DNA of 64,000 nt from Actinomycetota bacterium. Lineage in GTDB: Bacteria; Actinomycetota; UBA4738; JACQTL01. Below, in pieces: positions 1 through 48,926 of the stretch. The stretch spans positions 128,846 through 192,845 of the forward strand of contig JBJMLO010000008.1 in NCBI GenBank assembly GCA_045805265.1, read 5' to 3'. Position numbers and translations under genes: made by a program. The notes beneath the pieces are model-generated. The model ran no database searches and was not told the origin of the DNA. It worked only from the letters and a program-made list of their open reading frames with translations. Position 1 is the stretch's first letter; each line of letters begins with the position of its first letter.

Positions 1-731
1 GCCCTGGCCGCGGCCGTGAGCCGAAGCCAGTTCCCGCCGAGCACCAGGGACTCCTGGTCCCGAGGGAGCCCGAGGGCCCGGACCTTCGCCAGCTCGACGC
101 CCGGGTGGAGCCACGGGCCGTCGGTCCCGAACAGCAGCTTGTGGGCCCCGCCCCGGCCGACGGCCTCGACGAGGAGATCGAAGCGTCGGATCCCCGAGGA
201 GTCCGCGTGCACGTTCGGGGCCCGCGCCAGGAGGTCGATCGTCTGCCGTTGCGCGCGCCAGTCGTCGGCGAAGCTCCCGAGGTGGGGGACGATGAACTGC
301 ACTTGCTCGTATTGCTGCGCCGCGAGGTCGACGGTGGCCACCTCCCCCATCACGTCGTAGAGCACCGGAAGCTCCAGCGACCCGGCCACCTCGCAGACTT
401 CACGGGTGATCCGGGAGTCGTGGCGGTGCAGCTTGATCCCGCACGCCCCCCAGCCCGTCACCGCCTCGGTCACCATCGCCCGGATCCGGCCGGCGTCCCG
501 TTTGGCGTCCACCATGGCGTAGCCGAAGAACCGGTCGGGCCGGGCGGCCACGATGCGGCCCACCTCCCGGTTGGCCCGGCGGTAGTCGGAGTTGAATGCC
601 GCGAACAGCACCGTCCGGCCGATCCCGGCCCGGGCGGCCCGCCGGAGGTAGGCCCCGAGGGGCGCGTCCGTGTCCCAGGGCCCGGTGAGGCCGTCCCCCT
701 GGCCTGCGTGACAGTGGCTGTCGACGATCAT
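1..731 (-). CDS. amidohydrolase-2 family metal-dependent hydrolase (partial; 3' end lies beyond the window start)
   Basis: Manual translation of the minus strand from the ATG at 731..729 gives MIVDSHCHAGQGDGLTGPWDTDAPLGAYLRRAARAGIGRTVLFAAFNSDYRRANREV...GIKLHRHDS...HADSSGIRRFDLLVEAV...LLFGTDGPWLHPG with no stop before nt 1. The MIVDSHCH start and the overall pattern are typical of TIM-barrel amidohydrolases. The ATG overlaps the stop of the upstream bioF-like gene (ATGA). It is absent from the ORF track because it has no stop inside the window. Confidence 0.6.
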   Translation of the reverse strand, partial: MIVDSHCHAGQGDGLTGPWDTDAPLGAYLRRAARAGIGRTVLFAAFNSDYRRANREVGRIVAARPDRFFGYAMVDAKRDAGRIRAMVTEAVTGWGACGIKLHRHDSRITREVCEVAGSLELPVLYDVMGEVATVDLAAQQYEQVQFIVPHLGSFADDWRAQRQTIDLLARAPNVHADSSGIRRFDLLVEAVGRGGAHKLLFGTDGPWLHPGVELAKVRALGLPRDQESLVLGGNWLRLTAAAR

Positions 732-1846
732 CCCGCGACCGCCCGCCTGCGGGCCCTCGGTTGGGCCGTCCGCCCGGCCCTCGGACGGGCTCGCCCCCCC
801 GAGGCCACCACGATCCCGAGCGCCTCGACCGTCCGGTCGATCTCGGCCTCGCGGTGACCGGCGGTGACGATGAACGACACCGCCAGCCCCCGGCCGCACC
901 TCGGCCGATGCAACACCGTGCGGACCCCGAGCTCGAGGAGGCCCCGGTGGGTGGCCTGGGGGTCGAGGCCGGGCTCCGACCGGACGGACTGGAGCGGGAA
1001 CAGGCCCTCCGAGAGGGGCACGCCGAGCGCCGAGGCGCCGGCGCGGAACCGGGTCACGAGCCGTGCGAGGCGCCGCCGGAGCGCGTCCCCCACCCGGGCG
1101 TTGGCTCCGAGGGCCCGGACGGCCGCGTTGAGATGGGCGTTCGAGGCCGGGCTGCAGTGGACCCGGGTCGCGCTCCTCGACTCGTATCGTCGAACCGCCG
1201 CCCGGCTGCCGGCCACGGCGGCGACCGGAACCCCCAGCCCCTTGGCGAGGGAGGCCACGACGATCAGACCCGCGTCCCCGACGCCGGTCCAGCGCGCGAC
1301 GCCGCCGCCTCCCCGGCCGTAGGGATGCCCGGGCGCCGGAGTTCCCAAGATGCCGAGGGCCTGCGTGTCGTCCACGACCACGGTGCCGGGCTGGAAGCGG
1401 GCGACCGCCAGGTAGTCACCGACGGGAGCCACGCCGCCGCAGCCGGGACACAGGCCGTCGGTCAGCACGAACACGGATCGGGGGTCGCCGGCCTCGGCCA
1501 GTGCCCGCCGAAGCGATGCCGGGTCGTGGTGTCGGAACCTCCTGACCTTCGCCCCGGCGCACCGCGCCCGTTCCGCGCCCCACGACGCGATCGGGTAGGT
1601 CCCCTCGTCCACCAGGATCGTCCTGGCCCCCATCGCGACGAACAGGTCCCAAAACGCGTGCAGAGTGGAGGGCGCCACGGTCGCCGCCGTCGTCCCGATG
1701 AGCCCGGCCACCCGGCTCCCCACCTCACGCGCCGCGGGCGCCTCGGCCAGCGCGGCCGGCCGGCCGGTCGTGAGCTCCGCCCACGGAGGCACGCGCTCGC
1801 CACCGTGCCGCATCCCGAGGTACAGGGAGGAAGTGAGGTCGATCAC
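728..1846 (-). CDS. bioF: 8-amino-7-oxononanoate synthase-like PLP-dependent alpha-oxoamine synthase (BioF family)
   Basis: Frame of track ORF 728..3283. DLTSSLYLG matches the BioF NFSSNDYLGL motif, SLAKGLG carries the PLP lysine, LVTRFRAGA matches E. coli BioF LITRFRAGV, and the C-terminal FIVTAGHREAEIDRTVEAL matches [21 protein letters not shown]. The start is set at the GTG at 1846, which overlaps the upstream gene's stop by 16 nt. No other start codon exists in this frame up to about 1980, so the N-terminus is uncertain. Confidence 0.7.
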   Translation of the reverse strand: MIDLTSSLYLGMRHGGERVPPWAELTTGRPAALAEAPAAREVGSRVAGLIGTTAATVAPSTLHAFWDLFVAMGARTILVDEGTYPIASWGAERARCAGAKVRRFRHHDPASLRRALAEAGDPRSVFVLTDGLCPGCGGVAPVGDYLAVARFQPGTVVVDDTQALGILGTPAPGHPYGRGGGGVARWTGVGDAGLIVVASLAKGLGVPVAAVAGSRAAVRRYESRSATRVHCSPASNAHLNAAVRALGANARVGDALRRRLARLVTRFRAGASALGVPLSEGLFPLQSVRSEPGLDPQATHRGLLELGVRTVLHRPRCGRGLAVSFIVTAGHREAEIDRTVEALGIVVASGGRARPRAGRTAQPRARRRAVAG

Positions 1847-1860
1847 GGCTCGCGCCGCGA

Positions 1861-3384
1861 TCAGGTCCGCACACCCACCCGCGACCCGTCGGACGAGACC
1901 TGCTTCGGGAGCCGCTTGCGGAGCAGCACGGCCGGGATCGTGGCGTTCACCTGCCCCGTCACGGTGCTCGCGGCCAGGTCCACGCCGGTCGCGGCGCGAT
2001 AGGCATGGAGGTAACCCTGGACCTCCGGGCGCCAGTACCGGGCCCAGTTCGCCGCGCTCTCGGGGTGGATCTGGCCCGTCCAGGCCCCGTATCGGATCGA
2101 GAGAAGGATCTTCTCCCCGAAGATCGCGAGGTCCCGGAAGTGCAGGATCGACGTGTCCGTCCACGCCTGCAGGCTCTTCATGGTCTCGACCGAGTCCATC
2201 CAGGGCTCCGGGTAGTCGACCATGATCCGCCGGGGCAGGAACTCCCGCATCTCCGGGCGGGCCAGGATCCACTGCTGCATCAGGAACTCCTGCCGCGCGG
2301 TCCACGGGAGGTCGCCATACTGGTTGTGGGCGCCCTGAGTCAGCTGGAGATGGACCTCCCGTAGGCCGTTCAGCACGGGGAACCCGTCGGCGACCACCGT
2401 CGTGTCGTCGTCCTCCTTGTAGAAGATCGAGCACAGCATCAGGAGCGTGTGGAACGCCTCGAGGAACCGGGACCGCGAGTCCGCGCCCCGGATCGCGGGG
2501 ATCGCCTTTCCGATGAGCTTCAGGCCGTACTCGTGGTCGTACTCGTAGGCCCGCCGGGGGATCGTGAGCCGGTGCTCCTCGTCCTGCACCCAGCCCCACA
2601 GCAGGTTGTTCAGTCCGCGGAGCGGGTCGATCTCCAGCATCGCGAGCGGGTCGCGCTCCGCGGGGCCCCGCCGGTTCTGGAACCGCCAGCTCATGGCGTT
2701 CGTGGTCTGGACCAACATGCCTTCCTCGAGCCAGTAGTTCCAGAGCAATTCGAGCAGACACGGCCGGGTGAGCTTCGAGCGGAGGATCCCGTAGCACTGG
2801 CGGGCTCCGTACGCCCTCCGGCCGTGGATCGGGACGTCGCCGAGCTTCAGCTGGACGACGTCGTGCAGGTACGGGATCGTTCGGTGCTGGCCCACGGCCC
2901 GGAGGTACCCGAGCCACTGGGAGTCGACATCGGGGGCCGACGCCGTCGGCCGGAGCAGCCGGAGCTCCTCCTCCTCGGCGACCCCCACGTCCGAGGTCAG
3001 CACTCCGAAGTCGGCGTCCTCGAACCTCGTGTTGACCGAGATGCCGAGGTTGTCGTCGGACTCGCCGATCACCACTCCGCAGTGCGCCATCATGAAGACC
3101 TCGGTGGCGATCTTCAGCAGCCGGTACGGCTCCACATCCGGGAACGGGAGCTGGCGCTTCGCCCGGATGTGGTCGAACTGTCCCTGTGCGCGCGGCGGCG
3201 GCGAGCCACACATGATCGGCTCGATGAACGCCGCGTAGTTCTCGAAGGCCAGCGCCTCCGCGCTGTTGCGGATCACGACCCACAGCGCTTGGTCCGGCGT
3301 GGGCGTCACGTCGGCCCGGCGCATCGTCACCTCCACGGGCTGCCGCGGCCGGCCGCCCGGCGCCTTGAACATCGCCTTAGTCAT
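1861..3384 (-). CDS. hypothetical protein, 507 aa, Trp/Tyr/Phe-rich globular, no family recognised
   Basis: Track ORF 1861..3966 trimmed to the internal ATG (MTKAMFKAPGG...), which is preceded by GGAGG. Composition is protein-like throughout and local GC is lower than the surroundings. The sequence upstream of this ATG in the same frame is low-complexity G/R/A. Confidence 0.7.
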   Translation of the reverse strand: MTKAMFKAPGGRPRQPVEVTMRRADVTPTPDQALWVVIRNSAEALAFENYAAFIEPIMCGSPPPRAQGQFDHIRAKRQLPFPDVEPYRLLKIATEVFMMAHCGVVIGESDDNLGISVNTRFEDADFGVLTSDVGVAEEEELRLLRPTASAPDVDSQWLGYLRAVGQHRTIPYLHDVVQLKLGDVPIHGRRAYGARQCYGILRSKLTRPCLLELLWNYWLEEGMLVQTTNAMSWRFQNRRGPAERDPLAMLEIDPLRGLNNLLWGWVQDEEHRLTIPRRAYEYDHEYGLKLIGKAIPAIRGADSRSRFLEAFHTLLMLCSIFYKEDDDTTVVADGFPVLNGLREVHLQLTQGAHNQYGDLPWTARQEFLMQQWILARPEMREFLPRRIMVDYPEPWMDSVETMKSLQAWTDTSILHFRDLAIFGEKILLSIRYGAWTGQIHPESAANWARYWRPEVQGYLHAYRAATGVDLAASTVTGQVNATIPAVLLRKRLPKQVSSDGSRVGVRT

Positions 3385-3422: not shown

Positions 3423-4508
3423 CTACTTCCGGCGCAGGTGCGCTTCGACGACGTACGTCCCGGTCGGCACCGCCCGGGCGTCGATCCGGACCCGGGACCC
3501 CACGTCCTCGAGCAGGCCGCCCGCCTCGACGGTCCACTGGAGCTCGTAGCCGGCCGGGATCGGGCGCGGGAGCCTCGCCTCGGCGAGGACCAGCCCGGCG
3601 GAGTCGGGCTCGCTGACGTCGATGCGCTCTACGAACTTCTGCTCCGCCTCGCTCAGGACCTCGAGGGTCGCTTTGTGGTGCTCCTCCGCCTCCGCGAGCG
3701 CCTCCTCCGCCAGGCGCAGCTCGGCGTGCGCCCGGCGTTCCGCCTCCGGCGCCTCGACGAGCGCCCGCTCGGCTGCCTCGAACTCCTTCCTGGCCTCCTG
3801 GATCTCGGCCGGGCTGGCCCCGGGCGCCTTCGCCTGCAGCGCGTCGTGGGCGGCGGCCAGTTGCCGGTCGAGTCGCTCCTCTCTGGCGCGCAGCCCTCTG
3901 AGCTTCGCCGGATCGGGGGCCGCGGCCTTGAGCTCCGCCTCCGCGTCCCGAAGCCCCTTCTGCCACTCGGCGAGCTCCACCAGGTGCGCGTCGAGTGCCT
4001 CCTGTTGCTCACGAAGGGTTCCCGCCGAGTTCGCGAGCGCCGTCTTCTGCGCACCGGCCGGAGCAGCGGTCGCGGCGGAGTCGGTGTGCTTCGCGGACGT
4101 GGCCACCACCGTGGTGGCCCTCTTCGCGCTCGCGTTCCACTGCCTCGCCGCCTTGACGACCGATGCGAGGGCGTCTCGGGCGCGCTTGATCGAGTCGTGC
4201 GTCGCCTCGGCCTGGGCGAGCTCCCTCGTCACGGCATCGTGAGCCTCGCGGGTCTCGTCGTATTTCGCCTGGAGGGCCTTCGCATCGGCGTCGGAGAGCT
4301 CCACGCCCTCGGCCAGGACCCGGAATCGGGCCTCCGCGTTCCTCCACTGGCGCTGAGCAGCTCCGTTGAGCCCGGTCGTCGAATCGGCCCGCTTCCGCGC
4401 CGTCGCCTGTTCCTTCCTCCGTTCCTCCAGGATCGCCTCCGCCGCCTCGACCTCGTCGATGGCGAGGGCGAGCAGCTCCTCCGGCGTCCTGGTGATCGTG
4501 CCGGCCAT
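3423..4508 (-). CDS. coiled-coil protein with a small C-terminal beta-rich domain (hypothetical)
   Basis: Track ORF 3423..4508 has an ATG with a GGAGG site 7 nt upstream. A long Ala/Glu/Arg/Lys-rich heptad-like region (AEAELKAAAP..., EARKEFEAAERALVEAPEAERRAHAELRLAEEALAEAEEHHKATLEVLSEAEQKF) is followed by ...PAGYELQWTVEAGGLLEDVGSRVRIDARAVPTGTYVVEAHLRRK. Confidence 0.75.
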   Translation of the reverse strand: MAGTITRTPEELLALAIDEVEAAEAILEERRKEQATARKRADSTTGLNGAAQRQWRNAEARFRVLAEGVELSDADAKALQAKYDETREAHDAVTRELAQAEATHDSIKRARDALASVVKAARQWNASAKRATTVVATSAKHTDSAATAAPAGAQKTALANSAGTLREQQEALDAHLVELAEWQKGLRDAEAELKAAAPDPAKLRGLRAREERLDRQLAAAHDALQAKAPGASPAEIQEARKEFEAAERALVEAPEAERRAHAELRLAEEALAEAEEHHKATLEVLSEAEQKFVERIDVSEPDSAGLVLAEARLPRPIPAGYELQWTVEAGGLLEDVGSRVRIDARAVPTGTYVVEAHLRRK

Positions 4509-4525: not shown

Positions 4526-5996
4526 TCAGGGCCGGGATCCAGCTCTCCGGCCGATCCGCACCATCGGGCGGGCCCCCGCCGGCCGCCCGCCGTGGATCCC
4601 GGGCGGCGACCTCCTGACCGTCCCCCCGCCTCCGCCCGGCGGGATCGCTCTCCGCCGGACGAAGGCACGGCCGTACGGGCCGACCAGACCCGGGGCCGGC
4701 TGAGCGCCCGCCCGCGCCGCCAGCGCGGCGTTTGCCCGGAGCGTGCTCTCGAGCGCCCAGTAGGAGATCAGCCGTCCCAGCAAGCGGTCCTCGCCCTCCG
4801 GCGTGATCAGTCCCCGGGCCCTCGCCTGGCCCACCACGGCGAAGGCGAGCGCTGGGCGGGTCCGGCGGACCGCCCGGGGGTCTGCGGTCCACTGCGCGTA
4901 CAGGCGGATCAGCCGATCCGGTGTGCGGTCCGCGGTCCGGACGGCATCGCCGACGGTGCGTCCCCGGAGCGTGCCGGGACGGTGTCCCAGGACCAGTCGG
5001 ACGAACGCCGGCATGGTCGCCAGCAGGGCCTGGAGCACCCGACGGCGCTGCGCCGGCAGTCCCTCTGCCGGATAGAACGAGGTCCAGACGCTCGCCAGAC
5101 GGCGCCACTGCCGGTCGGGGTACAGGGCTTCGCCGAACGCGCATGAGACATGGACCCGAATCCACGAGAAGGGGTGGGGGTCGTCCGCCGACATCCGGAA
5201 CACGAACGCGCGCGGCAGACTCACCAATCCGATGAGGCCCATGGTCGACGAGACGCCGACCCGGGCGATGGAGAACAGGTCCGCGACGACCTCCGAGATC
5301 CATCGCTCCCACATGCGCCATGCGAGCCGCTCCGGCCCCGCCGCCGCGAGGCCGGCCCGGTGGATCTCCGGGCGGAGCGATTCGACCAGCCCGAGGAGCG
5401 CAGCCGCTTGGTGACCGGCCTCGTGGATCAGGGAGGAGGAAATCCCGTATGTAGCCGATCATGCGCTCCCGAGGGATGCGGATGATCGACACAGGGTTCT
5501 CACCTCCCCCGGGCAGGCGGGTCCGCGCACGGCGGATGGCGCCGCCCAGCCCCCGATGCAGGTAGCACACGGCCGGTGGCGCGCGGAAGTACCCCCCGGG
5601 CAGGTCGAGGGCGTCCTGGACCGCCACGTCGAGACCCGACAGCCACAGCCCGGTCTCGTGTTCGCTTCGTTGCGTGATCGCGTCGGAGAACAGATCCAGC
5701 TGCGACAACGCCAGGTTGAACCGGAGCCGGAGGAACGTGTACCGCCGCTGCTGTTCGCTCGGCCGGGCGCCGCGCCCGTGGCCCCGCAGCCACCTGAGGT
5801 ACCGGAGGATCTGGCGTCGAAGCGTCCGCCTCCCGCCGATCAGGTACAGCTCGATGGCCGTCTGGGCCTCGGGCGACAGCGCCGCGGCGGGCAGCATCGT
5901 CTCCTGGAGGGCAAACGGCTTCACCCGATCCAGCCGAGCCAGCAGCGCGCGGGCCTCGCGCTCCAGCATCCACGTGGACAGGCCGTCGGTGGACAC
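4526..5996 (-). pseudogene. putative HExxH zinc metallopeptidase (about 490 aa) interrupted by a single frameshift near 5445-5460
   Basis: Track ORF 4521..5996 is protein-like only for its first ~185 aa (MSTDGLSTWMLEREARALL...IRIPRERMIGYI). Translating the second frame upstream of track ORF 4526..5314 gives ...SATYGISSSLIHEAGHQAAALLGLVESLRPEIHRAGLAAAGPERLAWRMWERWISEVVADLF..., which contains an HEAGH motif. The two frames abut at about 5447-5459. The combined length equals one ~490-aa protein. Confidence 0.5.
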
Positions 5997-5999: not shown

Positions 6000-7166
6000 T
6001 CAGGCCCCGTAGACGATGATCCGGTTGCCCTGACGGACCCACGTGCCGGACCCCTGACCCCCGCCGGACCCGTCCGCCGGCCCCCCGCCGCCCCAGGTCG
6101 ACGGGCCGCCGTACCAGCCGCCGTACCCGGGCCCGTACCAGCGCCGGCGCGCGGACGGCGCGTACCCGTAGCCCGCGCGGCGCCGGGCGTAGGGGGCGCC
6201 CCGGTAGGCGTACCTCGGCATCCGGCGTCCGTAGCCCCGCCGGTAGGGGGCGCCGACCCGACGGGAGGGGCTCCGGTAGCCGTACCGGCCGAGCATCGCC
6301 GGCCGGCGAACGCCGACTCCCATCGGACGCCGCGGCACGACCGGACCGCCCAGGGAGCGGACCATCGACCGGTAGATGCCCGGCGCGTGGGAGCGCGCCG
6401 CTGCCGCCACCGCGGCGCGGGCCACCGCCTGGGGGCTGATGCCGGGCCGCGGCCGGGCCAGCGCCGCGTTCCTCGCCGACGCGGCAGCGAGGTTGACGAA
6501 GCGCCGGGCCACCTCGAACTCGGCCGCCTCGGCCGGCATGGCCTCCAGCTCGACCTCGAACAGGCCGCCCGCCATGGATCCGAGCTTGCTGCCGAGTGCG
6601 GTGCCGATCCCCGGCGCGATCATCGACCCGAGCGCCCCGCCCACGACCGGCAGGGCCTTCTTCGCCACGCTCTTCAGCACGCCGCCAAGGGCCCGCCCGA
6701 TCGGTGACTTGATGAAGCCGCCGACCCCGCGCGAGATGCGCTTGAAGACGTTGCCGAGGAACTGCTCGAGCTCCTGTTCGTTGTTGATCTCCAGCAGCTC
6801 GGAGGCCAGCTCGACCTCCTGGGCGCCGGAGAGCGGCGACTCCAGCTCGCCGCCGAGGATCGACCCGAGGATCCCGCCGAGGAACTGCTCGGTCTCGAAC
6901 TCGCCGCCGCCCTCGAACTCGCCTCCCTCGAACTCGCCGCCTCCCTCGAACTCGCCGCCGCCCTCGAACTCTCCTCCCTCGAACTCGCCGCCGCCCTCGA
7001 ATTCGCCGCCCTCGAACTCGCCGCCGCCCTCGAACTCGCCTCCCTCGAACTCGCCGCCTCCCTCGAACTCGCCGCCCTCGAACTCTCCTCCCTCAAACTC
7101 TCCGCCCTCGAACTCGCCTCCCTCGAACTCCCCGAATTCCGTCAGCTCCGCACCCTGCATGCCCAT
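6000..7166 (-). CDS. GEFEGG-repeat protein 1: acidic N-terminal tandem repeats, Gly-zipper-like amphipathic core, Arg/Tyr/Gly-rich C-terminal tail (hypothetical)
   Basis: Track ORF 6000..7166; the start is preceded by GGAGGAGG. The N-terminus holds about 18 copies of GEFEGG(G). The core reads ELASELLEINNEQELEQFLGNVF...ALPVVGGALGSMIAPGIGTALGSKLGSMAGGLF...EFEVARRFV...IYRS. The tail reads RRPMGVGVRRPAMLGRYGYRSPSRRVGAPYRRGYGRRMPRYAYRGAPYARRRAGYGYAPSARRRWYGPGYGGWYGG...RQGNRIIVYGA. Confidence 0.75.
   Translation of the reverse strand: MGMQGAELTEFGEFEGGEFEGGEFEGGEFEGGEFEGGGEFEGGEFEGGGEFEGGEFEGGGEFEGGEFEGGGEFEGGGEFEGGEFEGGGEFETEQFLGGILGSILGGELESPLSGAQEVELASELLEINNEQELEQFLGNVFKRISRGVGGFIKSPIGRALGGVLKSVAKKALPVVGGALGSMIAPGIGTALGSKLGSMAGGLFEVELEAMPAEAAEFEVARRFVNLAAASARNAALARPRPGISPQAVARAAVAAAARSHAPGIYRSMVRSLGGPVVPRRPMGVGVRRPAMLGRYGYRSPSRRVGAPYRRGYGRRMPRYAYRGAPYARRRAGYGYAPSARRRWYGPGYGGWYGGPSTWGGGGPADGSGGGQGSGTWVRQGNRIIVYGA
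6890..7135 (-). repeat. tandem 18-21 bp coding repeat array (about 18 units) encoding the GEFEGG(G) repeats
   Basis: The plus strand reads gaactcgccgccgccctcgaactcgcctccctc... repeated head-to-tail. Its antisense frame produces the spurious SNSPP-repeat ORF 6376..7590. Confidence 0.8.
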
Positions 7167-7195: not shown

Positions 7196-7873
7196 TCAGG
7201 AGCCGTACAGCACGATCGTTCGACCTCTCCGGATCCAGCGGCCCCCACGCGGCCAGGCGCGCGTCGAGCGACCCTGGAGCCGCGGCAGGAGACCGGGCGC
7301 GTAGATCCGCGCCGAGCTGCGGGCGGCCAGCCGCGCCACCGCGGAGGGCGGCAGGTGCGCCGGCGCGGCCACCGCCCGCCGGGCCGCGGCGCTCACGAAC
7401 CGCACGAGCTGGCGGGCGATCTCGAACTCGCGGTCCTCGCCCGAGAGGCCCTCGAGCTCCAAGCCGAGCAGCGTGCCTGCCGCTGCCCCGGCCCTGGCGC
7501 CGATGTCCCCGTACCCGCCCACGCGCTCGCCGATGGCCCGGCCCACGACCGGCAAGGCCTGCTTCGCGGCGCTCTGAAGGCTGTCCTTGAGGATGGTCCC
7601 GAGCGCCCGGCCGGTGTCCGAGCGGATGAAGTTCCCCGCGGCCCGCCCGACCGCCCCGAACACGTTCCCGAGGAACTGCTCGAGCTCCTGCTCGCTCGAC
7701 ACCTCGAGGAGCTCCGAGGCCAGCTCGATCTCCTGCATCTCGCCGAGCGGGCTCTCCAGCTCGGCGGGCGACTCGAACTCGCCGACTTCGAACTCAGAGC
7801 CCTCGAACTCGCCGGGGCCCTCGAACTCTCCGACCTGCCCGTGCTCGAGTTGCGTCCGTCCGATGTCGTGCAT
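7196..7873 (-). CDS. GEFEGG-repeat protein 2 (shorter paralog of 6000..7166)
   Basis: Track ORF 7196..7942 trimmed to the internal ATG (MHDIGRTQLEHGQVGEFEGPGEFEGSEFEVGEFES...), which has GGAGG 5 nt upstream. It shares ELASELLE..SEQELEQFLGNVF, ALPVVG, EFEIARQLV, IYAPG and the C-terminal R.GRTIVLYGS with gene 1. It lies 23 nt upstream of gene 1. Confidence 0.75.
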   Translation of the reverse strand: MHDIGRTQLEHGQVGEFEGPGEFEGSEFEVGEFESPAELESPLGEMQEIELASELLEVSSEQELEQFLGNVFGAVGRAAGNFIRSDTGRALGTILKDSLQSAAKQALPVVGRAIGERVGGYGDIGARAGAAAGTLLGLELEGLSGEDREFEIARQLVRFVSAAARRAVAAPAHLPPSAVARLAARSSARIYAPGLLPRLQGRSTRAWPRGGRWIRRGRTIVLYGS

Positions 7874-7980: not shown

Positions 7981-7997
7981 TGCACGTTCCGTGCCGG
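7981..7997 (-). promoter_or_regulatory. candidate sigma-54-type -24/-12 element (CGGCACGGAACGTGCAC on the minus strand) about 110 nt upstream of the GEFEGG-repeat operon
   Basis: The GG-N10-GC spacing is conserved, with 2 mismatches to TGGCACG-N4-TTGCA. It is 14/17 identical to the element upstream of the rpoN-like gene. It is the only such match in the 275-bp gap between the rpoN-like gene and the first GEFEGG gene. Confidence 0.4.
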
Positions 7998-8146
7998 GCT
8001 GCCTCGGCGATCGACGTCGGGGGGGGACGCGAACGACGCTTCGGCTCGGGGGATCCGCGCCTCGCCAGGACGAAGCGACCTTCGCCTCATTTGGAGCGGG
8101 CCGGCGGCGCACGACGGGGACGGGGCATTTCCGGTGACGCCTGGGC

Positions 8147-9457
8147 TCAGCGATACGTGCTGGGAAGGATCCGGAGGCGGCTGCGGTACTTGGCGACCGT
8201 CCGTCTCGCGACGCGGTGACCGGCTCGGCGGAGCCGCTCGGACAGCTCCGCGTCGCTGAGGGGCCGGTCCTCCGCGGCGATGATGTCCCGAAGGCGGGCG
8301 CGCATCCCGAGCGAGCCGTCGAAGAACGCGCCGAAGGGGACAACGCGGCGCGACGGCAGGAGGACGTACTTCTCGGCAGTCGCGCGGCTCACCGTGGATG
8401 GACTGAGACCGAGTTCCCCCGCGACATCGGCGCGGGTCAGGCGCAGGTCGGTGGCCGGATCGCCGGACATCAGGTCCGGCCGCCGGTCCGCAAGGTGCTC
8501 GGTGATCCTCCGCATCGTCGACCAGCGCTCCCGGAGCCGGGCCAGCAGGAAGTCGCCCCTCCTGACCAGCTCGCACATCTTCCGGTCGCTGCGGGCGACG
8601 CCGCGGAACGCCGGGTCCACGCGGAGGGGGAGACGTCGCTCCTCGAGGACCTCGACTTGAAACGTCCCCGGCCGGTCGGCGCGGCCCAGGACCGCGACGT
8701 CCGGCTGGACCGGCGGGGCCGTCACGCCGGCTCCCGATTCGTCGTCCACGTCGGGACGCGGGAGGAGCTCCCGCCGGATGTACTCGCGGGCGTCCGCGAC
8801 GTCGGCAACGGACACGCCGAGCAGCCGCGCGATGGAGGCCGTGGCTCCCCGGGCGAGCGACTCGAGGTGATCGGCGACGACCGCGCGGGCGACGGGATGG
8901 AAGTTGCCTTCGCCGGCCAGCCGATCGATCTGCAGCAGGAGGCAGTCTCGGAGGTCCCTCGCGGCCACGCCCACGGGACCGGTCTCCCGCAGGGTCCGGA
9001 CGACGCGCTCGACGGACGCCGGGTCTGCGCCGGCGATGCGCGCCAGCTCCTGGATCCCTTCCCTGAGGTATCCCCTGTCGTCCAGGCTGGCGACGACGGC
9101 GGCGGCGATCCCGGCGTCCCGCGCCGGCAGCACGAGCATGAGCTCCCGGAGCAGCCGCTCGGCGAACGATTCCGTCGAGACGGCCGCCGGCCCGGTCGGG
9201 GGGTCGTCCGGGTCGCGGAGACTCGCCCGGGAGGGCCGGCTCGTGCAGTAGATGCAGGGTGGGTCGGCGGGGAGTCCGCAGCCGCCGCACACGTGCACCT
9301 CGTCCTCGACCAGCGCGGGGTTCTCGGAGAGCTCGCGGGCCACGGTCTGTTCCAGCTCGATCCCCGAGAGGGCCAGGAGGCTCGCGTAGGCGACGAGCGC
9401 GGGCGAGGGAGACATCCGGAGCTCCTGCGTCACGTCGAGCGCGACCGTGAGCGACAC
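8147..9457 (-). CDS. rpoN: RNA polymerase sigma-54 factor (RpoN) homolog, 436 aa, with a CxxC...CxxC insertion in region II
   Basis: Frame of track ORF 8147..10300. The C-terminus ADVAGELGLSPSTVSRATAEKYVLLPSRRVVPFGAFFDGS...PLSDAELSERLRRAGHRVARRTVAKYRSRLRILP aligns with the E. coli sigma-54 HTH and RpoN box (ARRTVAKYRE). The core-binding region ETGPVGVAARDLRDCLLLQI is near-identical to E. coli DPVGVAARDLRDCLLIQL. Region I reads VSLTVALDVTQELRMSPSPALVAYASLLALSGIELEQTVARELSENPALVE. The start is set at the GTG 14 codons upstream of the first ATG, with AGGAGG 6 nt upstream. The insertion HVCGGCGLPADPPCIYC follows region I. Confidence 0.85.
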   Translation of the reverse strand: MSLTVALDVTQELRMSPSPALVAYASLLALSGIELEQTVARELSENPALVEDEVHVCGGCGLPADPPCIYCTSRPSRASLRDPDDPPTGPAAVSTESFAERLLRELMLVLPARDAGIAAAVVASLDDRGYLREGIQELARIAGADPASVERVVRTLRETGPVGVAARDLRDCLLLQIDRLAGEGNFHPVARAVVADHLESLARGATASIARLLGVSVADVADAREYIRRELLPRPDVDDESGAGVTAPPVQPDVAVLGRADRPGTFQVEVLEERRLPLRVDPAFRGVARSDRKMCELVRRGDFLLARLRERWSTMRRITEHLADRRPDLMSGDPATDLRLTRADVAGELGLSPSTVSRATAEKYVLLPSRRVVPFGAFFDGSLGMRARLRDIIAAEDRPLSDAELSERLRRAGHRVARRTVAKYRSRLRILPSTYR

Positions 9458-9504
9458 CGAATCCCTCCTGTCCGACGAGAGTGTGTCCCTCAACCCACGG
9501 TCAG

Positions 9505-9521
9505 TGCAAGGTCCGTGCCAA
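9505..9521 (-). promoter_or_regulatory. canonical sigma-54 -24/-12 promoter element (TGGCACG-GACC-TTGCA) directly upstream of the rpoN-like gene
   Basis: The minus strand reads ...GGGGT TGGCACG GACC TTGCA CTGACCGTGGGTTGAGGGACACACTCTCGTCGGACAGGAGGGATTCG GTG. This is a perfect match to TGGCACG-N4-TTGCW. The GC dinucleotide lies about 48 nt upstream of the GTG start, leaving a ~35-nt leader with the AGGAGG site. Confidence 0.55.
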
Positions 9522-9607
9522 CCCCCGGCGGCGTCTCGGCGCTCAGCTCTCGACTTCCCCCTGGACCCGCCGGTATCCTCGGCCGGGTCTCGGATGGAGG
9601 GGAATGA

Positions 9608-10924
9608 ATGACGCTTCGTCGCATGGTCCGGTTGGCGCTCCCGGCGATGGTGGGGAGTGCGCTCGTGCTGGGGGGTGGACTGCGGGCCTGGGCGGCCTCC
9701 GGCGACCTCGACGGCAGCTTCGGGGGTGGTGACGGGATCGCGACGCAGGACTTCGGCGGCGCAAGTGCCTCCCACGGCCATGCGGCCCTGCTGCAGCCCG
9801 ACGGCAAGATCGTCGCGGCCGGGTCGACGGTGCTGCCCTCCCGTTTCGACGCCGACTTCGGCGTCGCCAGGTTCCTGTCCAACGGAGACCCGGATCCCGC
9901 CTTCGGGACGGGCGGCGCCGTCTCGACCAACTTCCTGGGGGGGCACGATGTCGCCCGCGCGATCCTCCGGCAGAGCGACGGGAAGCTCGTGGTGGTCGGC
10001 GACGCGTGCGAGCTCGACGACTCGAGCGCCTGCGGGTTCGCTGTCGTGCGGTACCTGCCCTCCGGGAAGCGGGACCTGTCCTTCAGCGGCGATGGCCGAG
10101 AGCGCATCGAGTTCCCTGGGTACGACGACCTCACCGGCTTCAACGGCGCGCTGATGTCCGGCGGAAAGATCCTGATCGTCGGCGACGGGAACAAGACCGC
10201 CGACGGCCAGTCCGACATGGTGCTCGCCCGGCTGAACGGGAACGGCTCGCTCGACACGACGTTCAGCGGAGACGGGCGGCAGACCCTCGACCCGTCGCAC
10301 GGCGGCGACGACGGCATGTCCGGCGTTGCGATCCAGAGCGACGGCAAGATCGTGGGGTCCGGGTGGGCCTACAACGGCAGCGACGGCCGGTGGTGCGTGG
10401 TCCGCCTCAAGCCGAACGGCACCCTCGACACCACCTTCAGCGGCGACGGCGTCGTGATCAAGAACGTGGTGCCTGGCCAGGACGACTACTCCAACGACCT
10501 CATCGTGTTGCCCTCGTCGCGCATCCTGGCGATCGGCCGGGCGGTGAACGCGGTGGGGGTCTCCACCGGGGGCGACGTCGTCCTCCTCCGGCTGACGTCC
10601 GGGGGCGTCCCGGACACGTCGTTCGGCGCCGGCGGCCTGCGGAAGGCAGACTTCGGGGGCGACGAGGAGCCCGTCAGCGTCGCCCGCGACAGCACCGGGC
10701 GGATCGTGATGTCCGGCCGGGTCGGGAACGGCACGGGGTTCGGCGTGTTCCGGTTCACGGCGGCCGGAGCTCCCGACACCACCTTCGCCGGCGACGGACT
10801 GGCCGTGGAGGGCGGCGGCGCGCTGGCCGCCGGCATCGCGGTCCAGGGGAACGACCGTCCGGTGGCGGTGGGCAGCACGTCCCAGGGTCCGGGCGATCTC
10901 GAGGTCGCCAGGTTCCTGGCCTGA
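9608..10924 (+). CDS. secreted beta-propeller repeat protein (delta-60 / SBBP-like repeats, repeated LDxxFGxxG motifs)
   Basis: Track ORF 9608..10924. The ATG is preceded by GGAGGGG. The N-terminal signal peptide is MTLRRMVRLALPAMVGSALVLGGGLRAWAASG. Repeats of the form DG.LD.SF..DG...... / G.IV..G occur throughout. Confidence 0.8.
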   Translation: MTLRRMVRLALPAMVGSALVLGGGLRAWAASGDLDGSFGGGDGIATQDFGGASASHGHAALLQPDGKIVAAGSTVLPSRFDADFGVARFLSNGDPDPAFGTGGAVSTNFLGGHDVARAILRQSDGKLVVVGDACELDDSSACGFAVVRYLPSGKRDLSFSGDGRERIEFPGYDDLTGFNGALMSGGKILIVGDGNKTADGQSDMVLARLNGNGSLDTTFSGDGRQTLDPSHGGDDGMSGVAIQSDGKIVGSGWAYNGSDGRWCVVRLKPNGTLDTTFSGDGVVIKNVVPGQDDYSNDLIVLPSSRILAIGRAVNAVGVSTGGDVVLLRLTSGGVPDTSFGAGGLRKADFGGDEEPVSVARDSTGRIVMSGRVGNGTGFGVFRFTAAGAPDTTFAGDGLAVEGGGALAAGIAVQGNDRPVAVGSTSQGPGDLEVARFLA

Positions 10925-15540: not shown

Positions 15541-17622
15541 CTATTCGGAGAGCGGGATCGTCCCCCGCACCCGTGTCCCCCGGCCGGGGGTGGACTCGAC
15601 GCGCAGGGTGCCCCCGACCGCCCCCAGGCGGTCGTTCATGTTGGTGAAACCCACGCCGTTCCGCCGGGCGGTCACGTCGAATCCGACGCCGTCGTCGGCG
15701 GCCTCGAACAGCAGCGCCCCGGCCTCCTCCCAGACCCGGACGACCACCGACGCGCCCTCACCCGCGTACTTCCCGGCGTTCTGCATGGCCTCCAGGCAGC
15801 AGAAGTACACGGTGGCCTCGACCTCGGCGGAGTGGCGGCCCACGTCCCCGGCTCGGATCTCCACCGGGAGCGCCGCGCGGCGCGCCGCGGAGTCCAGCGC
15901 CGGCCCGATGCCCCGGTCGGCCAGGAGCGGCGGGTAGATCCCATGGGCCAGGGCGCGCAGCTGCTGCACCGCTTCCTCGATGTCGCCGCCCAGCTCCTCG
16001 ATCAGCTCGGATGCCTTGGCGGGGTCCCGCTCGCCCAGCTGGCGGGCCAGGCGGAGCTTCACCGCGATGGCCACCAGGTGCTGCTGGGCGCCGTCGTGGA
16101 GGTTCCGCTCGATGCGCCGCCGCTCCTGGTTGGCCACGGCCACGATGCGGCCCCGGGACGCCTGGAGCTCGCCGGCCTGCCGGCGCACCTCGTCCAGCGA
16201 CGACTGCAGGGCGGAGTCCAGCCGGACGTTGTGCATGGCCAGCCCGACCTGCCGGGAGAGCTCGGCCAGGACCCGGTCCTCCTCGTCGTCGAACGGCTGC
16301 CCCTCCGGCGCGCGCTCGGCGACGAGGAGCCCGAGCAGCTCGCCGGAGTGGGTGACCGGAGCCAGTCGCAGCACGGCGTCCTCCCGCCCCTCCAGGACCC
16401 CGGGGAGCCACAGGCGGGCCCACGCGGGCCCGGACAGGCCCGCCCGGGAGACCGTGGCCTCCTCCGTCTGGCCGAGCGAGATGGGGCCGCGGGGCCCCTC
16501 CGGATCGGAGGCCGAGAGGTCCAGCCTGCCGCCGGTGGCCGTCCACATCTCCGCCGCGCGCAGCGCGAACGCCGAGCGCACCGACTCCACCATCTGCAGC
16601 AGGAGCTCGTCGAGCGGCACCGACCGCGACATCCGGGTTCCGAACGAGCGCAGGACGTCCTCCGACGTCGGCCGGCCGCCGTAGGCCAGGCGGGAGGCGA
16701 GACGGCGCAGCCGCCCCCGGGCGGGGACGTACAGCAACGCCGCCAGGCCGGCCGCGACCATCGACAGCACGAGCAGGGTCCGCTCGTCGTGGCGGGGAAC
16801 GCGCCCCAGGCCGATCACGACCGCCACGTAGATCCCGGCGACGATCGCCGAGAGCCCGGCGAGCGACACCGCGTTCGCAAACAGGGCGTCGATCGCCACG
16901 GCGACTCCCGGCGCGGCCTCCAGCAGCAGGGCGACCGGGACGGCGACCGTCCAGCCGACGGCCCACAGCCCGGCCGACGGCGGCCAGTCGACCAGCGCCC
17001 ACAGGATCCCCACGGCCACCGCGCCCCAGGCCGCCGCGAGGACTCCCAGCGCGAGCCACTTCATGTGCCGCTGCTCGTTCGGCGTGACCCGGCCGAACCG
17101 GTCGGCGAATCCCGGCGCGCCCACGAGCAGGGCCACGACGAGCTCGCCGGCGACGAGCGGCGTGTTCACCCGGCCTCCCGCCATCGCCACGGCGGCGGCC
17201 AGGGCGCCCACGTAGACGAGGCCGGCGACCACCCGCCGGGTCGACGTCCCGAGGCGTCCGTCCGGCATGCCCAGCAGCAGATGGGCGCCGACCGCGGGCA
17301 GCAAGCCGGCCGCGGCCGGGCCCAGGTCCCCGTTCAGCAGCCCGATGCCCGCCACCGCCGCTCCCCCACCGAGGACGGCGCCCAGGGGCTCGCCCCGGAA
17401 CCGGAACGTGCGGACCGCCCCGGCCGCCGCCCACACCACCGCGGTGGCGGCGAGCAGGATCAGTCCGTGTCCCGCCCCCCGCACGACCTGGGCGACCAGC
17501 GCGGCGCCGGACAGGCCGATCCCGGCCACCGCGAGCACGGCGCCGAGGGCGAGGGCTCCCGTCCTTCGATCGCGCCCGACGTCCACATGGGGTGCCGTTC
17601 CCGCCTTCACCGTGGTGGCCAT
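15541..17622 (-). CDS. sensor histidine kinase, NarL/HisKA_3 type, with a multi-pass N-terminal membrane domain
   Basis: Track ORF 15541..17628. ERRRIERNLHDGAQQHLVAIAVKLRLA is the HisKA_3 H-box. The C-terminal HATPase (GVGFTNMNDRLGAVGGTLRVESTPGRGTRVRGTIPL) follows. The N-terminal 300 aa are hydrophobic. No response-regulator gene is adjacent. Confidence 0.85.
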   Translation of the reverse strand: MATTVKAGTAPHVDVGRDRRTGALALGAVLAVAGIGLSGAALVAQVVRGAGHGLILLAATAVVWAAAGAVRTFRFRGEPLGAVLGGGAAVAGIGLLNGDLGPAAAGLLPAVGAHLLLGMPDGRLGTSTRRVVAGLVYVGALAAAVAMAGGRVNTPLVAGELVVALLVGAPGFADRFGRVTPNEQRHMKWLALGVLAAAWGAVAVGILWALVDWPPSAGLWAVGWTVAVPVALLLEAAPGVAVAIDALFANAVSLAGLSAIVAGIYVAVVIGLGRVPRHDERTLLVLSMVAAGLAALLYVPARGRLRRLASRLAYGGRPTSEDVLRSFGTRMSRSVPLDELLLQMVESVRSAFALRAAEMWTATGGRLDLSASDPEGPRGPISLGQTEEATVSRAGLSGPAWARLWLPGVLEGREDAVLRLAPVTHSGELLGLLVAERAPEGQPFDDEEDRVLAELSRQVGLAMHNVRLDSALQSSLDEVRRQAGELQASRGRIVAVANQERRRIERNLHDGAQQHLVAIAVKLRLARQLGERDPAKASELIEELGGDIEEAVQQLRALAHGIYPPLLADRGIGPALDSAARRAALPVEIRAGDVGRHSAEVEATVYFCCLEAMQNAGKYAGEGASVVVRVWEEAGALLFEAADDGVGFDVTARRNGVGFTNMNDRLGAVGGTLRVESTPGRGTRVRGTIPLSE

Positions 17623-17644
17623 TCCCAATTCCCCTTTCTCGTGT

Positions 17645-20095: not shown

Positions 20096-20097
20096 CG

Positions 20098-27415: not shown

Positions 27416-27417
27416 TT

Positions 27418-35535: not shown

Positions 35536-35611
35536 GGTCCCATCGTCTAGTGGCCTAGGACACCACCCTCTCAAGGTGGAGACACGGGTTCAAATCCCGT
35601 TGGGACTACCA
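35536..35611 (+). tRNA. tRNA-Glu (anticodon CUC)
   Basis: GGTCCCATCGTCTAGTGGCCTAGGACACCACCCTCTCAAGGTGGAGACACGGGTTCAAATCCCGTTGGGACTACCA folds as a cloverleaf. The acceptor has a G1:U72 wobble, the anticodon stem is CCACC/GGTGG, the loop is CTCTCAA (U33, A37), the T-arm is ACGGG-TTCAAAT-CCCGT, and CCA is encoded. It closely resembles E. coli tRNA-Glu. Coordinates are +/-1. Confidence 0.85.
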
Positions 35612-35626
35612 GAGAGAACATGCGGG

Positions 35627-37347: not shown

Positions 37348-37389
37348 GAGAGTCTCGACCGCCGGACGTAGCTGAAGAGCTGTTCGCGT

Positions 37390-37611: not shown

Positions 37612-37696
37612 CGCTCCTCCTTCCCGCGGTCTTGACGGGCCCATTGCCCGGACCGCATCGGTGAGAAGGACGATAAGGGTGCGGCCGGCTCGTATC

Positions 37697-48925: not shown

Positions 48926-48926
48926 G

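What the first reader, a model, noticed from the sequence alone, without database searches (positions are those of the whole stretch)
9505..9521. Perfect -24/-12 (TGGCACG-N4-TTGCA) element immediately upstream of the rpoN-like gene itself
On the minus strand, TTGGCACGGACCTTGCACTGA lies ~35 nt upstream of the AGGAGG site and GTG start of the sigma-54 homolog. This is an exact consensus sigma-54 promoter in the right orientation and at a sensible distance. That implies autoregulation, or transcription by a second sigma-54. rpoN promoters are usually sigma-70 type, so this would be unusual.
Basis: seen in the sequence. Interest (0 to 1): 0.75.

Follow-up and report, generated by a model that had tools for sequence, protein, structure and literature searches.

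The report
Sigma-54 promoter driving its own sigma gene
The motif is a real, strictly conserved sigma-54 promoter in front of the sigma-54 gene itself, and it belongs to a self-contained sigma-54, activator and enhancer gene cassette in uncultured Actinomycetota, a phylum reported to lack sigma-54.

Summary
TTGGCACGGACCTTGCA lies at 9521..9505 on the minus strand, 63 nt upstream of the GTG start of a genuine sigma-54 gene (9457..8147). It is the only exact TGGCAC-N5-TTGC site in 64 kb (0.07 expected).

It is not chance. All 33 related loci plus the window carry TGGCACG[GA]A[TC]CTTGC[AG] at -55 to -64 from the rpoN start, while the flanking DNA is unconserved.

It is promoter P1 of a conserved cassette:
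- P1 and rpoN.
- Two palindromic enhancers, CGAAG-N4-CTTCG.
- A second -24/-12 promoter, P2 (7996..7981).
- A seven-gene operon of mostly unknown function.
- A convergent enhancer-binding activator, which begins 41 nt outside the window in this same organism.

P1 has no enhancer of its own. The only enhancer pair lies about 1.4 kb downstream.

The most likely mechanism is positive autoregulation by the cassette's own sigma-54 and activator. This is inferred, with no transcript data. Repression by a poised closed complex remains possible.

Sigma-54 promoters upstream of rpoN are already known. The novelty is the host phylum (Actinomycetota, on MAG labels and marker genes) and the cassette architecture.

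The parts
9505..9521 (-). P1: sigma-54 type -24/-12 promoter, T-TGGCACGGACCTTGCA (GG at 9519-9518, GC at 9507-9506). The predicted start site is about G9494, giving a 5' UTR of about 37 nt (inferred).
   Evidence: Searches give sequence and chance. Searches show conservation in 34/34 loci, with invariant TGGCAC and TGC columns.
9463..9469 (-). Shine-Dalgarno sequence AGGAGGG, 5 nt before the GTG start of rpoN.
   Evidence: A GGAGG-like block is present at the same place in alignment A3.
8147..9457 (-). rpoN: sigma-54 of 436 aa. It has region I, a CxxC-N7-CxxC insertion (C57, C60, C68, C71), the core-binding domain, an HTH and the RpoN box ARRTVAKYR.
   Evidence: Pfam AID 5e-7, CBD 2e-32 and DBD 9e-22. 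PDB sigma-54 chains match at 3e-35. Translation, conserved cysteines.
8071..8084 (.). Distal enhancer (UAS) palindrome CGAAGGTCGCTTCG, 88 nt upstream of the first base of P2.
   Evidence: In 20/20 relatives the equivalent site lies at -98 to -101.
8030..8043 (.). Proximal enhancer (UAS) palindrome CGAAGCGTCGTTCG (1 mismatch), 47 nt upstream of the first base of P2.
   Evidence: In 20/20 relatives the equivalent site lies at -57 to -59.
7981..7996 (-). P2: second -24/-12 promoter, CGGCACGGAACGTGCA, 123 nt before the ATG of the next gene.
   Evidence: One search shows it is the only other intergenic site scoring at least 6/8. Searches show conservation (22 distinct sequences; also L130).
7196..7873 (-). 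g1: 225-aa protein starting MHDIGRTQLE. It has acidic GEFEG repeats, an ELEQFLG motif, a Gly/Lys-rich amphipathic segment and the C-terminal motif RWIRRGRTIVLYGS.
   Evidence: No Pfam, NCBIfam or PADLOC family.
6000..7166 (-). g2: 388-aa paralogue of g1 with a longer (GEFEG)n array.
4526..5996 (-). g3: orthologue of a 475-aa HExxH protein. In the window it is split by a 4-nt insertion (ATAC) at about 5446-5449.
3423..4508 (-). g4: 361-aa coiled-coil protein, poorly conserved.
1861..3384 (-). g5: 507-aa protein, 70-78% identical in relatives. It belongs to a large family with no annotation.
   Evidence: The AlphaFold model had low confidence.
728..1846 (-). BioF/Kbl-like PLP-dependent acyltransferase.
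   Evidence: (TIGR00858, 2e-20).
1..731 (-). Amidohydrolase_2 gene, running off the window start. The convergent activator (bEBP) gene ends 41 nt beyond window coordinate 1.
   Evidence: PF04909, 1e-15. L131 overlaps the window over 3394 nt with 0 mismatches and carries the PF00158 gene.

Best explanation
P1 is a functional sigma-54 dependent promoter. It is recognised by the sigma-54 that it precedes, so the sigma factor is autoregulated, most likely positively.

**Proposed sequence of events.**
1. A low basal amount of sigma-54 holoenzyme sits as a closed complex on P1 and on the sister promoter P2.
2. The cassette's own enhancer-binding activator has a receiver-like N-terminus, an AAA+ domain with GAFTGA and a C-terminal HTH. 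It binds the two CGAAG-N4-CTTCG palindromes between rpoN and g1.
3. When its signal arrives, the activator remodels the closed complexes.
4. P2, 47-100 nt from the enhancers, fires the g1-to-amidohydrolase operon.
5. P1 has no enhancer of its own but a stronger core (TTGCA against G/A-TGC-G/A). It is activated by looping from the same enhancer pair about 1.4 kb downstream, or by activator acting from solution.
6. More sigma-54 is made, which amplifies P2.

**Shown.** The sites, their conservation, the cognate sigma factor, the activator gene and the enhancer geometry.

**Inferred.** Binding, the transcription start, the sign of regulation, long-range activation and the source of basal sigma-54.
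For: 1. **Match to consensus.** 8/8 match to TGGCACG-N4-TTGCW, the only one in 64 kb, with 0.01-0.07 expected.
2. **Conservation of P1.**
   - Present at -55 to -64 in 34/34 loci, giving 23 distinct sequences.
   - Nothing upstream of the -24 element is conserved, and the upstream neighbour genes differ between loci.
3. **Cognate sigma factor.** The adjacent gene has all three sigma-54 Pfam domains, an unchanged RpoN box ARRTVAKYR, an HTH matching solved sigma-54 and a recognisable region I.
4. **Sister promoter P2.** It is conserved in every locus that covers the gap and has two palindromes at fixed positions: -98 to -101 and -57 to -59 in 20/20 relatives, -88 and -47 in the window. The cassette therefore really uses enhancer-dependent sigma-54 transcription.
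5. **Activator.**
   - A PF00158 activator with GESGTGKE, GAFTGA and a C-terminal HTH is convergent at the cassette end in 5/5 rpoN-linked relatives that reach that far.
   - It is also present in the window's own organism, 41 nt beyond coordinate 1.
6. **No competing promoter found.** No sigma-70 consensus promoter and no intrinsic terminator were found in 7800-9700. In the window the upstream gene is divergent, so rpoN needs a promoter within the 150-nt intergenic region, and P1 is the only conserved element there.
7. **Precedent.** Activator-dependent sigma-54 promoters reading into rpoN are described for prxS-rpoN2 (PMC3538637).
Against: - There are no transcript, start-site or expression data.
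- P1 lacks a local enhancer. Palindromes with up to 2 mismatches within 250 nt upstream number 6, against 3.8 +/- 1.8 expected. K-mer and alignment searches also found nothing.
- Activation from about 1.4 kb away, or from solution, is known for NtrC/NifA-type systems. That rests on my recollection of the older literature and is untested here.
- A purely sigma-54 dependent rpoN promoter cannot start from zero, and no source of basal sigma-54 was identified.
- The sigma-70 scan uses an E. coli-type consensus and is a weak test in a 72% GC actinobacterium.
- The rest of the genome was not available, so a second rpoN cannot be excluded.
Confidence: 0.6

Rival explanations
1. **Negative autoregulation or a poised roadblock.** Sigma-54 holoenzyme binds P1 as a stable closed complex that is rarely or never activated, because no enhancer is nearby. 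This occludes an unrecognised housekeeping promoter in the same short intergenic region, or blocks read-through. Sigma-54 levels are thereby held constant.
For: - P1 has no local enhancer, while P2 has two.
- P1 has the tighter-binding core (TTGCA), as expected for an occupancy site.
- In several relatives the upstream gene is co-directional and ends only about 20-130 nt before P1, so read-through is possible there.
- Negative autoregulation of rpoN is documented in Rhizobium leguminosarum (PMC3538637).
Against: - No conserved -35/-10-like element overlaps P1, and nothing but P1, the start region and the SD is conserved.
- In the window the upstream gene is divergent, so read-through cannot supply rpoN.
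- P1 keeps promoter-like geometry, with a conserved GG at -2/-1 and a fixed distance to the start codon.
Confidence: 0.2
2. **Control by a second sigma-54.** P1 is read by a different, housekeeping-type sigma-54 encoded elsewhere in the genome. That would make this a cascade rather than autoregulation, as with rpoN1 and rpoN2 in rhizobia.
For: - Rhizobial rpoN2 can be expressed with RpoN1 (PMC3538637).
- Only 64 kb plus 0.9 kb of a contig of at least 262 kb was seen, so most of the genome is unexamined.
Against: - Published surveys report that Actinomycetota lack sigma-54 and its activators (PMC3162934, PMC12316311).
- Only one RpoN box is present in six frames of the window.
- In 33/33 related loci the rpoN gene carries P1. 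In all 5 relatives that extend far enough it is also linked to its own activator and target operon, which suggests a self-sufficient unit.
Confidence: 0.05
3. **Not a sigma-54 site.** The motif is the operator of another DNA-binding protein, or a chance match in GC-rich DNA.
For: - High GC raises the background of GG-N10-GC pairs. There were 1875 such pairs in the window, nearly all scoring 4/8 or less.
Against: - An 8/8 match is expected 0.01 times per window.
- It is invariant in 34/34 loci at a fixed distance from rpoN.
- The same motif recurs as P2 with enhancers and a linked sigma-54 activator.
- The motif is a direct, not inverted, repeat of TGGCA/TTGCA one helical turn apart, as sigma-54 requires.
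Confidence: 0.03

Closest known systems
NifA-activated prxS-rpoN2 operon of Rhizobium etli and Mesorhizobium loti (PMC3538637). From memory, also the autoactivated nifU2-rpoN superoperon of Rhodobacter capsulatus.
   Same: A -24/-12 promoter, served by an AAA+ enhancer-binding activator, reads into an rpoN gene. Sigma-54 dependent transcription therefore raises sigma-54.
   Different: - Those promoters precede another gene (prxS or nifU2) and have adjacent activator sites.
- The hosts are Proteobacteria with a second rpoN or a constitutive promoter.
- Here P1 is immediately upstream of rpoN and has no local enhancer.
- The host phylum is reported to lack sigma-54.
- The sigma factor, activator, enhancers and target operon form a single cassette.
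Negatively autoregulated rpoN of Rhizobium leguminosarum (PMC3538637). From memory, also Bradyrhizobium japonicum rpoN2 and Rhizobium etli rpoN1.
   Same: Sigma-54 controls its own gene through its own promoter region.
   Different: Those cases are repression of a sigma-54 independent promoter. Here no overlapping housekeeping promoter could be found, and the site is a perfect, positionally fixed promoter.
Predicted sigma-54 promoters upstream of rpoN across bacterial classes (PMC12316311).
   Same: A computationally detected -24/-12 site upstream of rpoN, implying autoregulation.
   Different: That survey concluded that Actinomycetota effectively lack a functional RpoN, and Chloroflexota is not mentioned in its main text. 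It reports enrichment statistics, not a conserved cassette with enhancers.
Dedicated rpoN paralogues with cognate activators in Cereibacter (Rhodobacter) sphaeroides (PMC11999139, PMC3538637).
   Same: A specialised sigma-54 works with its own activator on a small, dedicated gene set.
   Different: Those are extra copies beside a general rpoN in a proteobacterium. Here the cassette sigma factor may be the only sigma-54 in the cell, and it carries a Zn-ribbon-like insertion in place of the acidic region II.
Positively autoregulated ECF sigma factors (general knowledge).
   Same: The sigma factor gene is preceded by a promoter that the same sigma factor recognises, giving signal amplification.
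   Different: ECF sigma factors belong to a different protein family, controlled by anti-sigma factors. Here control is by an ATP-dependent activator and enhancers.

Membership tests
Sigma-54 dependent (-24/-12) promoter | GG and GC doublets exactly 10 nt apart within TGGCACG-N4-TTGCW. | tested here: met
   8/8 match at 9520..9505.
Sigma-54 dependent (-24/-12) promoter | Co-oriented with a downstream gene, at a distance compatible with a start site 11-13 nt after the GC plus a 5' UTR. | tested here: met
   GC at 9507-9506, SD at 9469..9463 and GTG at 9457, giving a predicted UTR of about 37 nt. The distance is fixed at -55 to -64 in 34 loci.
Sigma-54 dependent (-24/-12) promoter | A sigma-54 with an intact RpoN box and HTH is encoded in the same genome. 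| tested here: met
   The adjacent gene has ARRTVAKYR and Pfam AID, CBD and DBD. It aligns to solved sigma-54 structures.
Sigma-54 dependent (-24/-12) promoter | An enhancer-binding AAA+ activator (PF00158, GAFTGA) is encoded in the same genome. | tested here: met
   - L131 comes from the same organism, with 0 mismatches over 3394 nt. It carries the C-terminal 271 aa of a PF00158 protein ending 41 nt outside the window.
- Full-length orthologues with GESGTGKE and GAFTGA were read in L125 and L126, and one in L127.
- PF00158 genes occupy the same position in 5/5 rpoN-linked relatives.
- No such gene lies inside the window itself.
Sigma-54 dependent (-24/-12) promoter | An activator-binding enhancer about 70-200 bp upstream of the promoter. 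| tested here: not met
   - For P1, no conserved element lies upstream. CGAAG-N4-CTTCG-like sites are at background frequency.
- For P2 the feature is met: two palindromes at about -100 and -58 in 20/20 relatives, and at -88 and -47 in the window.
- The nearest enhancer pair to P1 lies about 1.4-1.5 kb downstream.
Sigma-54 dependent (-24/-12) promoter | Conservation at orthologous loci against diverged flanks. | tested here: met
   34/34 loci. TGGCAC and TGC are invariant, and mean column identity across the 18-sequence alignment is 45%.
Sigma-54 dependent (-24/-12) promoter | A mapped transcription start, and loss of transcription in rpoN or activator mutants. | not testable with these tools
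   The organism is an uncultured MAG and no RNA data were accessible.
Positively autoregulated rpoN | A sigma-54 independent source of basal rpoN expression exists to prime the loop. | tested here: inconclusive
   No sigma-70 consensus promoter was found in 7800-9700, but the scan uses an E. coli-type consensus. Read-through is possible in relatives with co-directional upstream genes but not in the window.
Negatively autoregulated rpoN | The sigma-54 site overlaps a housekeeping promoter that it occludes. | tested here: inconclusive
   No conserved -35/-10-like element overlaps P1. Actinobacterial promoters are hard to detect from sequence.
Canonical RpoN protein (TIGR02395 equivalog) | Score above the NCBIfam trusted cut-off, and an acidic region II. 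| tested here: not met
   TIGR02395 scores 202.7 bits against a cut-off of 277.35. Region II is replaced by CxxC-N7-CxxC. All three Pfam domains pass their thresholds. It is therefore a divergent subfamily, not a non-member of the sigma-54 superfamily.

The most novel reading that the evidence does not exclude
This is a portable, self-priming sigma-54 expression cassette. It carries its own sigma-54 (a Zn-ribbon subfamily shared with Chloroflexota), its own activator, one enhancer pair and two promoters. That lets enhancer-dependent transcription operate in Actinomycetota, which otherwise lack the system.

The sigma factor gene's own promoter has no local enhancer. It would be fired by the enhancer pair 1.4 kb downstream, so a single enhancer drives both the amplifier (rpoN) and the output operon.

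A related module without a linked rpoN (L129) suggests that the sigma factor gene was recruited into the cassette.
Probability: 0.4. Interest if true: 0.75.

Novelty: new variant of a known kind. Interest (0 to 1): 0.65.

Why it matters
- **Phylum-level claim.** Reviews and a 2025 survey of 1,414 genomes state that Actinomycetota effectively lack functional sigma-54 and its activators. Here a lineage labelled Actinomycetota, including Streptosporangiaceae MAGs, carries an intact sigma-54. It has two strictly conserved cognate promoters, a tandem enhancer and a linked activator. That is strong comparative evidence that the system is in use.
- **Why surveys may miss it.** The protein scores below NCBI's rpoN cut-off and is annotated as hypothetical, so genome surveys are likely to miss it.
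- **A compact test system.** The architecture is a sigma factor gene behind its own enhancer-less promoter, sharing one distant enhancer with the output operon. It is compact and testable for long-range activation and for positive feedback in sigma-54 control.
- **Unknown function.** The regulated operon has no known function. It encodes acidic GEFEG-repeat proteins, an HExxH protein, a large uncharacterised family and PLP and amidohydrolase enzymes. The regulatory logic now gives a handle on when it is expressed.

Tried and rejected
- **Genome collection scans.** The first found no relative. The second was swamped by the universal RpoN-box pattern and returned only distant sigma-54 loci. These were still useful as a background set.
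- **Looking up the window's own sigma-54.** This returned only 3-kb contigs.
- **Activator motifs in the window.** A six-frame search for GAFTGA and GESGTGK, plus Pfam on 30 further window proteins, found no activator. It proved to lie just outside the window.
- **Enhancer near P1.** K-mer enrichment and alignment upstream of P1 showed nothing conserved. Palindrome matches are at chance level. Two weak window-only matches, at -98 and -202 from P1, are not conserved and are treated as chance.
- **Sigma-70 and terminator scan, 7800-9700.** Nothing found, but this is a weak test at 72% GC.
- **Function of the downstream genes.** Pfam, NCBIfam and PADLOC gave no informative family for g1-g5, and PDB sequence searches gave none for g3 and g5. 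NCBIfam did identify the sixth gene as BioF-like.
- **AlphaFold2 model of g5 from 36 homologues.** Mean pLDDT was 44, so no fold search was run.
- **Literature.** No paper was found describing an actinobacterial sigma-54 system or the Zn-ribbon insertion. The Geobacter paper cited for autoregulation gave no explicit statement in the passages searched.

Full report
**1. Observation**

Reading the minus strand gives GGGGG-T-TGGCACGGACCTTGCA-CTGA. The T of TGGCAC is at 9520, GG at 9519-9518, GC at 9507-9506 and the last A at 9505. AGGAGGG follows at 9469..9463 and GTG at 9457.

Exact TGGCAC-N5-TTGC occurs once in the 64 kb on both strands, against 0.07 expected. One mismatch adds nothing. I also scored sites that require GG-N10-GC against TGGCACG-N4-TTGCW. 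An 8/8 site is expected 0.01 times per window. The only intergenic sites scoring at least 6/8 and lying within a plausible distance upstream of a co-oriented gene are this one and a second at 7996..7981. Three independent short-read assemblies of the same organism carry the identical motif.

**2. The gene**

The ORF 9457..8147 encodes 436 aa.
- It has Pfam Sigma54_AID (5e-7), Sigma54_CBD (2e-32) and Sigma54_DBD (9e-22).
- It has an unchanged RpoN box, ARRTVAKYR.
- It aligns to solved Klebsiella and E. coli sigma-54 chains at 3e-35, including the HTH. Region I aligns recognisably but below significance on its own.
- It scores below NCBI's trusted cut-off for rpoN (202.7 against 277.35 bits). 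NCBI labels it a hypothetical protein of a MAG named "Actinomycetota bacterium".

**3. Host**

Several lines support the Actinomycetota label at the level that MAG annotation allows.
- GC content is about 72%.
- The window also encodes GltX, an Rv2993c-like hydrolase and SerA. From memory, the first two are also neighbours in Mycobacterium tuberculosis.
- Every named hit among the top GltX homologues (62-77% identity) is an Actinomycetota MAG.
- Two sigma-54 homologues come from Streptosporangiaceae MAGs.

Two papers state that Actinobacteria lack sigma-54. [quoted passage not shown]

**4. Conservation**

About 56 proteins at 51-68% identity form a clade. The next tier, at about 40%, is Chloroflexota. 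I fetched 33 related loci.

Every one, plus the window, has TGGCACG[GA]A[TC]CTTGC[AG] at -55 to -64 from the rpoN start. This gives 23 distinct sequences. TGGCAC and TGC are invariant, and a GG is conserved at the predicted -2/-1. In an 18-sequence alignment nothing upstream of the -24 element is conserved. The upstream neighbour genes differ from locus to locus. This is a strong phylogenetic footprint.

**5. A second promoter with enhancers**

In every locus that covers the gap after rpoN there is a second site. Its consensus is TGGCACGGAAC[GAT]TGC[GA], and it lies 93-123 nt before the ATG of a gene starting MHDIGRTQLE. In the window this site, P2, is CGGCACGGAACGTGCA at 7996..7981.

Upstream of P2 the palindrome CGAAG-N4-CTTCG occurs twice.
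- In 20/20 relatives the copies lie at -98 to -101 and -57 to -59 from the first base of P2, with 0-1 mismatch.
- In the window they lie at -88 (8084..8071, exact) and -47 (8043..8030, one mismatch). That is a shift of about one helical turn.
- The 21 loci gave 109 matches in total, against 21.9 in shuffles. About a quarter of the remainder (17 matches) are CGAAGG[CT]GAGTTCG inside GEFEG-repeat coding DNA.

This is the classic geometry of a tandem enhancer for an AAA+ activator.

**6. The activator**

No activator is encoded inside the window. In all five rpoN-linked relatives that extend far enough, a convergent PF00158 gene follows the last cassette gene.
- It has Walker A GESGTGKE, GAFTGA, an AAA lid and a weak C-terminal Fis-type HTH.
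- The longest version has an N-terminal region of about 135 aa that looks receiver-like by eye.

A 4.25-kb contig from the same organism overlaps the window over 3394 nt with no mismatch and extends 859 nt beyond coordinate 1. It carries the C-terminal 271 aa of this activator, ending 41 nt outside the window. The window's organism therefore has the complete set: sigma-54, activator, enhancers, P1 and P2.

**7. P1 has no enhancer of its own**

Alignment, k-mer enrichment and a palindrome scan allowing up to 2 mismatches found nothing conserved upstream of P1. The palindrome scan gave 6 hits against 3.8 +/- 1.8 expected. The only enhancer pair lies 1.37-1.52 kb downstream of P1.

P1 has the stronger core. 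Its -14 position is T and it ends TTGC[A/G], whereas P2 has G, A or T at that position.

**8. Mechanism**

The best-supported model is that the cassette's sigma-54 binds both promoters. The activator, bound at the palindromes, fires P2 locally. It fires P1 by looping over about 1.4 kb or from solution. The result is positive feedback on sigma-54 and amplification of the operon. From memory, NtrC and NifA enhancers work over kilobase distances, and strongly binding promoters can be activated without adjacent sites.

The points in favour of P1 being the rpoN promoter:
- In the window the upstream gene is divergent, so a promoter must lie in the 150-nt intergenic region.
- P1 is the only conserved element there.
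- No sigma-70 consensus promoter or terminator was detected in 7800-9700.

The main rival is a poised or repressive closed complex. It fits the lack of a local enhancer and the strong core, and it has precedent in Rhizobium leguminosarum (PMC3538637). A cascade from a second sigma-54 cannot be excluded without the rest of the genome, but it is unlikely in this phylum. My weights are 0.6 for positive autoregulation, 0.2 for negative or poised, 0.05 for a second sigma factor and 0.03 for not being a sigma-54 site.

**9. Comparison with known systems**

Sigma-54 promoters reading into rpoN are known. Examples are prxS-rpoN2 in R. etli and M. loti (PMC3538637) and, from memory, nifU2-rpoN in R. 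capsulatus. A 2025 survey predicts enrichment of such sites in several classes (PMC12316311).

What differs here:
- The host phylum.
- The linkage of sigma factor, activator, enhancers and target operon in one cassette.
- The absence of a local enhancer at the sigma factor's promoter.
- A CxxC-N7-CxxC insertion replacing region II, which is shared with Chloroflexota sigma-54.

Among 84 distant rpoN loci, 14 have a site scoring at least 6/8 within 250 nt upstream, against about 1 expected. Five of these are Chloroflexota (L005, L006, L010, L011, L017). Several Chloroflexota loci have an activator gene downstream of rpoN.

A related module, L129, has the operon, P2-like promoter, palindromes and activator but no linked rpoN. 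This suggests that rpoN was recruited into the cassette in the actinobacterial lineage, or travelled with it.

**10. The regulated operon**

Its function is unknown.
- g1 and g2 are paralogous proteins with acidic GEFEG or GEYEG repeats, an ELEQFLG motif, a Gly/Lys-rich amphipathic segment and a conserved C-terminal motif.
- g3 is an HExxH protein, split in the window by a 4-nt insertion.
- g4 is a coiled-coil protein.
- g5 belongs to a family with about 5000 homologous clusters, all unannotated. Its AlphaFold model had a pLDDT of 44 and was not usable.
- The last two genes are a BioF-like PLP enzyme and an amidohydrolase.

**11. Verdict**

The site is a new variant of a known kind. Interest is moderate to high, because it documents a conserved, apparently working sigma-54 system in a phylum said to lack one, and because of the shared-enhancer architecture. 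All functional statements rest on comparative sequence evidence only.

Noticed in passing
window 9289..9245 (codons 57-71 of rpoN); alignment A1; proteins P0001-P0120: The sigma-54 carries CxxC-N7-CxxC directly after region I, where other sigma-54 proteins have the acidic region II. C57, C60 and C68 are invariant and C71 nearly so in the clade. A similar CxxC-N7-9-CxxC is present in most of the Chloroflexota-like homologues. No paper describing this was found.
   Followed up: partly
window 7196..7873 and 6000..7166 (- strand): Two paralogous proteins have (GEFEG)n acidic repeats, an ELEQFLG motif, a Gly/Lys-rich amphipathic stretch and the C-terminal motif W[IV]R.G..I[VI].YG. No family matched in any library. 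In relatives the repeat-coding DNA creates many near-copies of the enhancer palindrome (CGAAGGCGAGTTCG).
   Followed up: partly
window about 5446-5449 (- strand), inside 4526..5996: The HExxH protein gene (475 aa in L084) is split in the window by a 4-nt insertion, ATAC, just before the HExxH codons. It is not a homopolymer error, so it is either a real pseudogene or a misassembly. The orthologues in L085 and L086 are also fragmented.
   Followed up: partly
window 1861..3384 (- strand): The 507-aa protein is more conserved than the sigma factor (70-78% against about 65%). It belongs to a family of about 5000 clusters, all hypothetical, with no Pfam domain. AlphaFold2 with 36 homologues gave a pLDDT of only 44.
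   Followed up: partly
L129 5150..15183 (GCA_041477045.1): A related operon (g1, g2, g3, g5, PLP enzyme, M20 peptidase, amidohydrolase) has the convergent activator, two CGAAG-N4-CTTCG palindromes and TGGTACCGGACTTGCG upstream of g1. It has no adjacent rpoN. The module therefore exists without a linked sigma factor gene.
   Followed up: partly
L005, L006, L010, L011, L017 (Chloroflexota); L004, L011, L017, L117, L118: Several Chloroflexota rpoN genes also have TGGCA[CT]-N5-TTGCA 24-53 nt before the estimated start. Several have an activator gene downstream on the same strand. Autoregulated rpoN may be common in this Zn-ribbon subfamily.
   Followed up: partly
window 9605..9618 and 9709..9722: Two weak matches to the enhancer palindrome lie upstream of P1: CGAAGCGTCATTCA at -98 and CGAAGCTGCCGTCG at -202. 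They occur in the window only, are not conserved in relatives, and are compatible with chance.
   Followed up: yes
window 15541..28170 (- strand): This is a run of four large FtsX/MacB-type permease genes (758-822 aa each). An ABC ATPase gene precedes them and a HisKA_3 histidine kinase gene follows.
   Followed up: no
window 35536..40837: A tRNA gene (35536..35608) is followed by about 5 kb of lower GC (0.64-0.70) with little coding signal in the GC3 frame analysis. This may be an integrated or foreign element.
   Followed up: no
window 46485..50000 (- strand): A CheR methyltransferase fused to several PAS domains is followed by two CheB-methylesterase genes.
   Followed up: no
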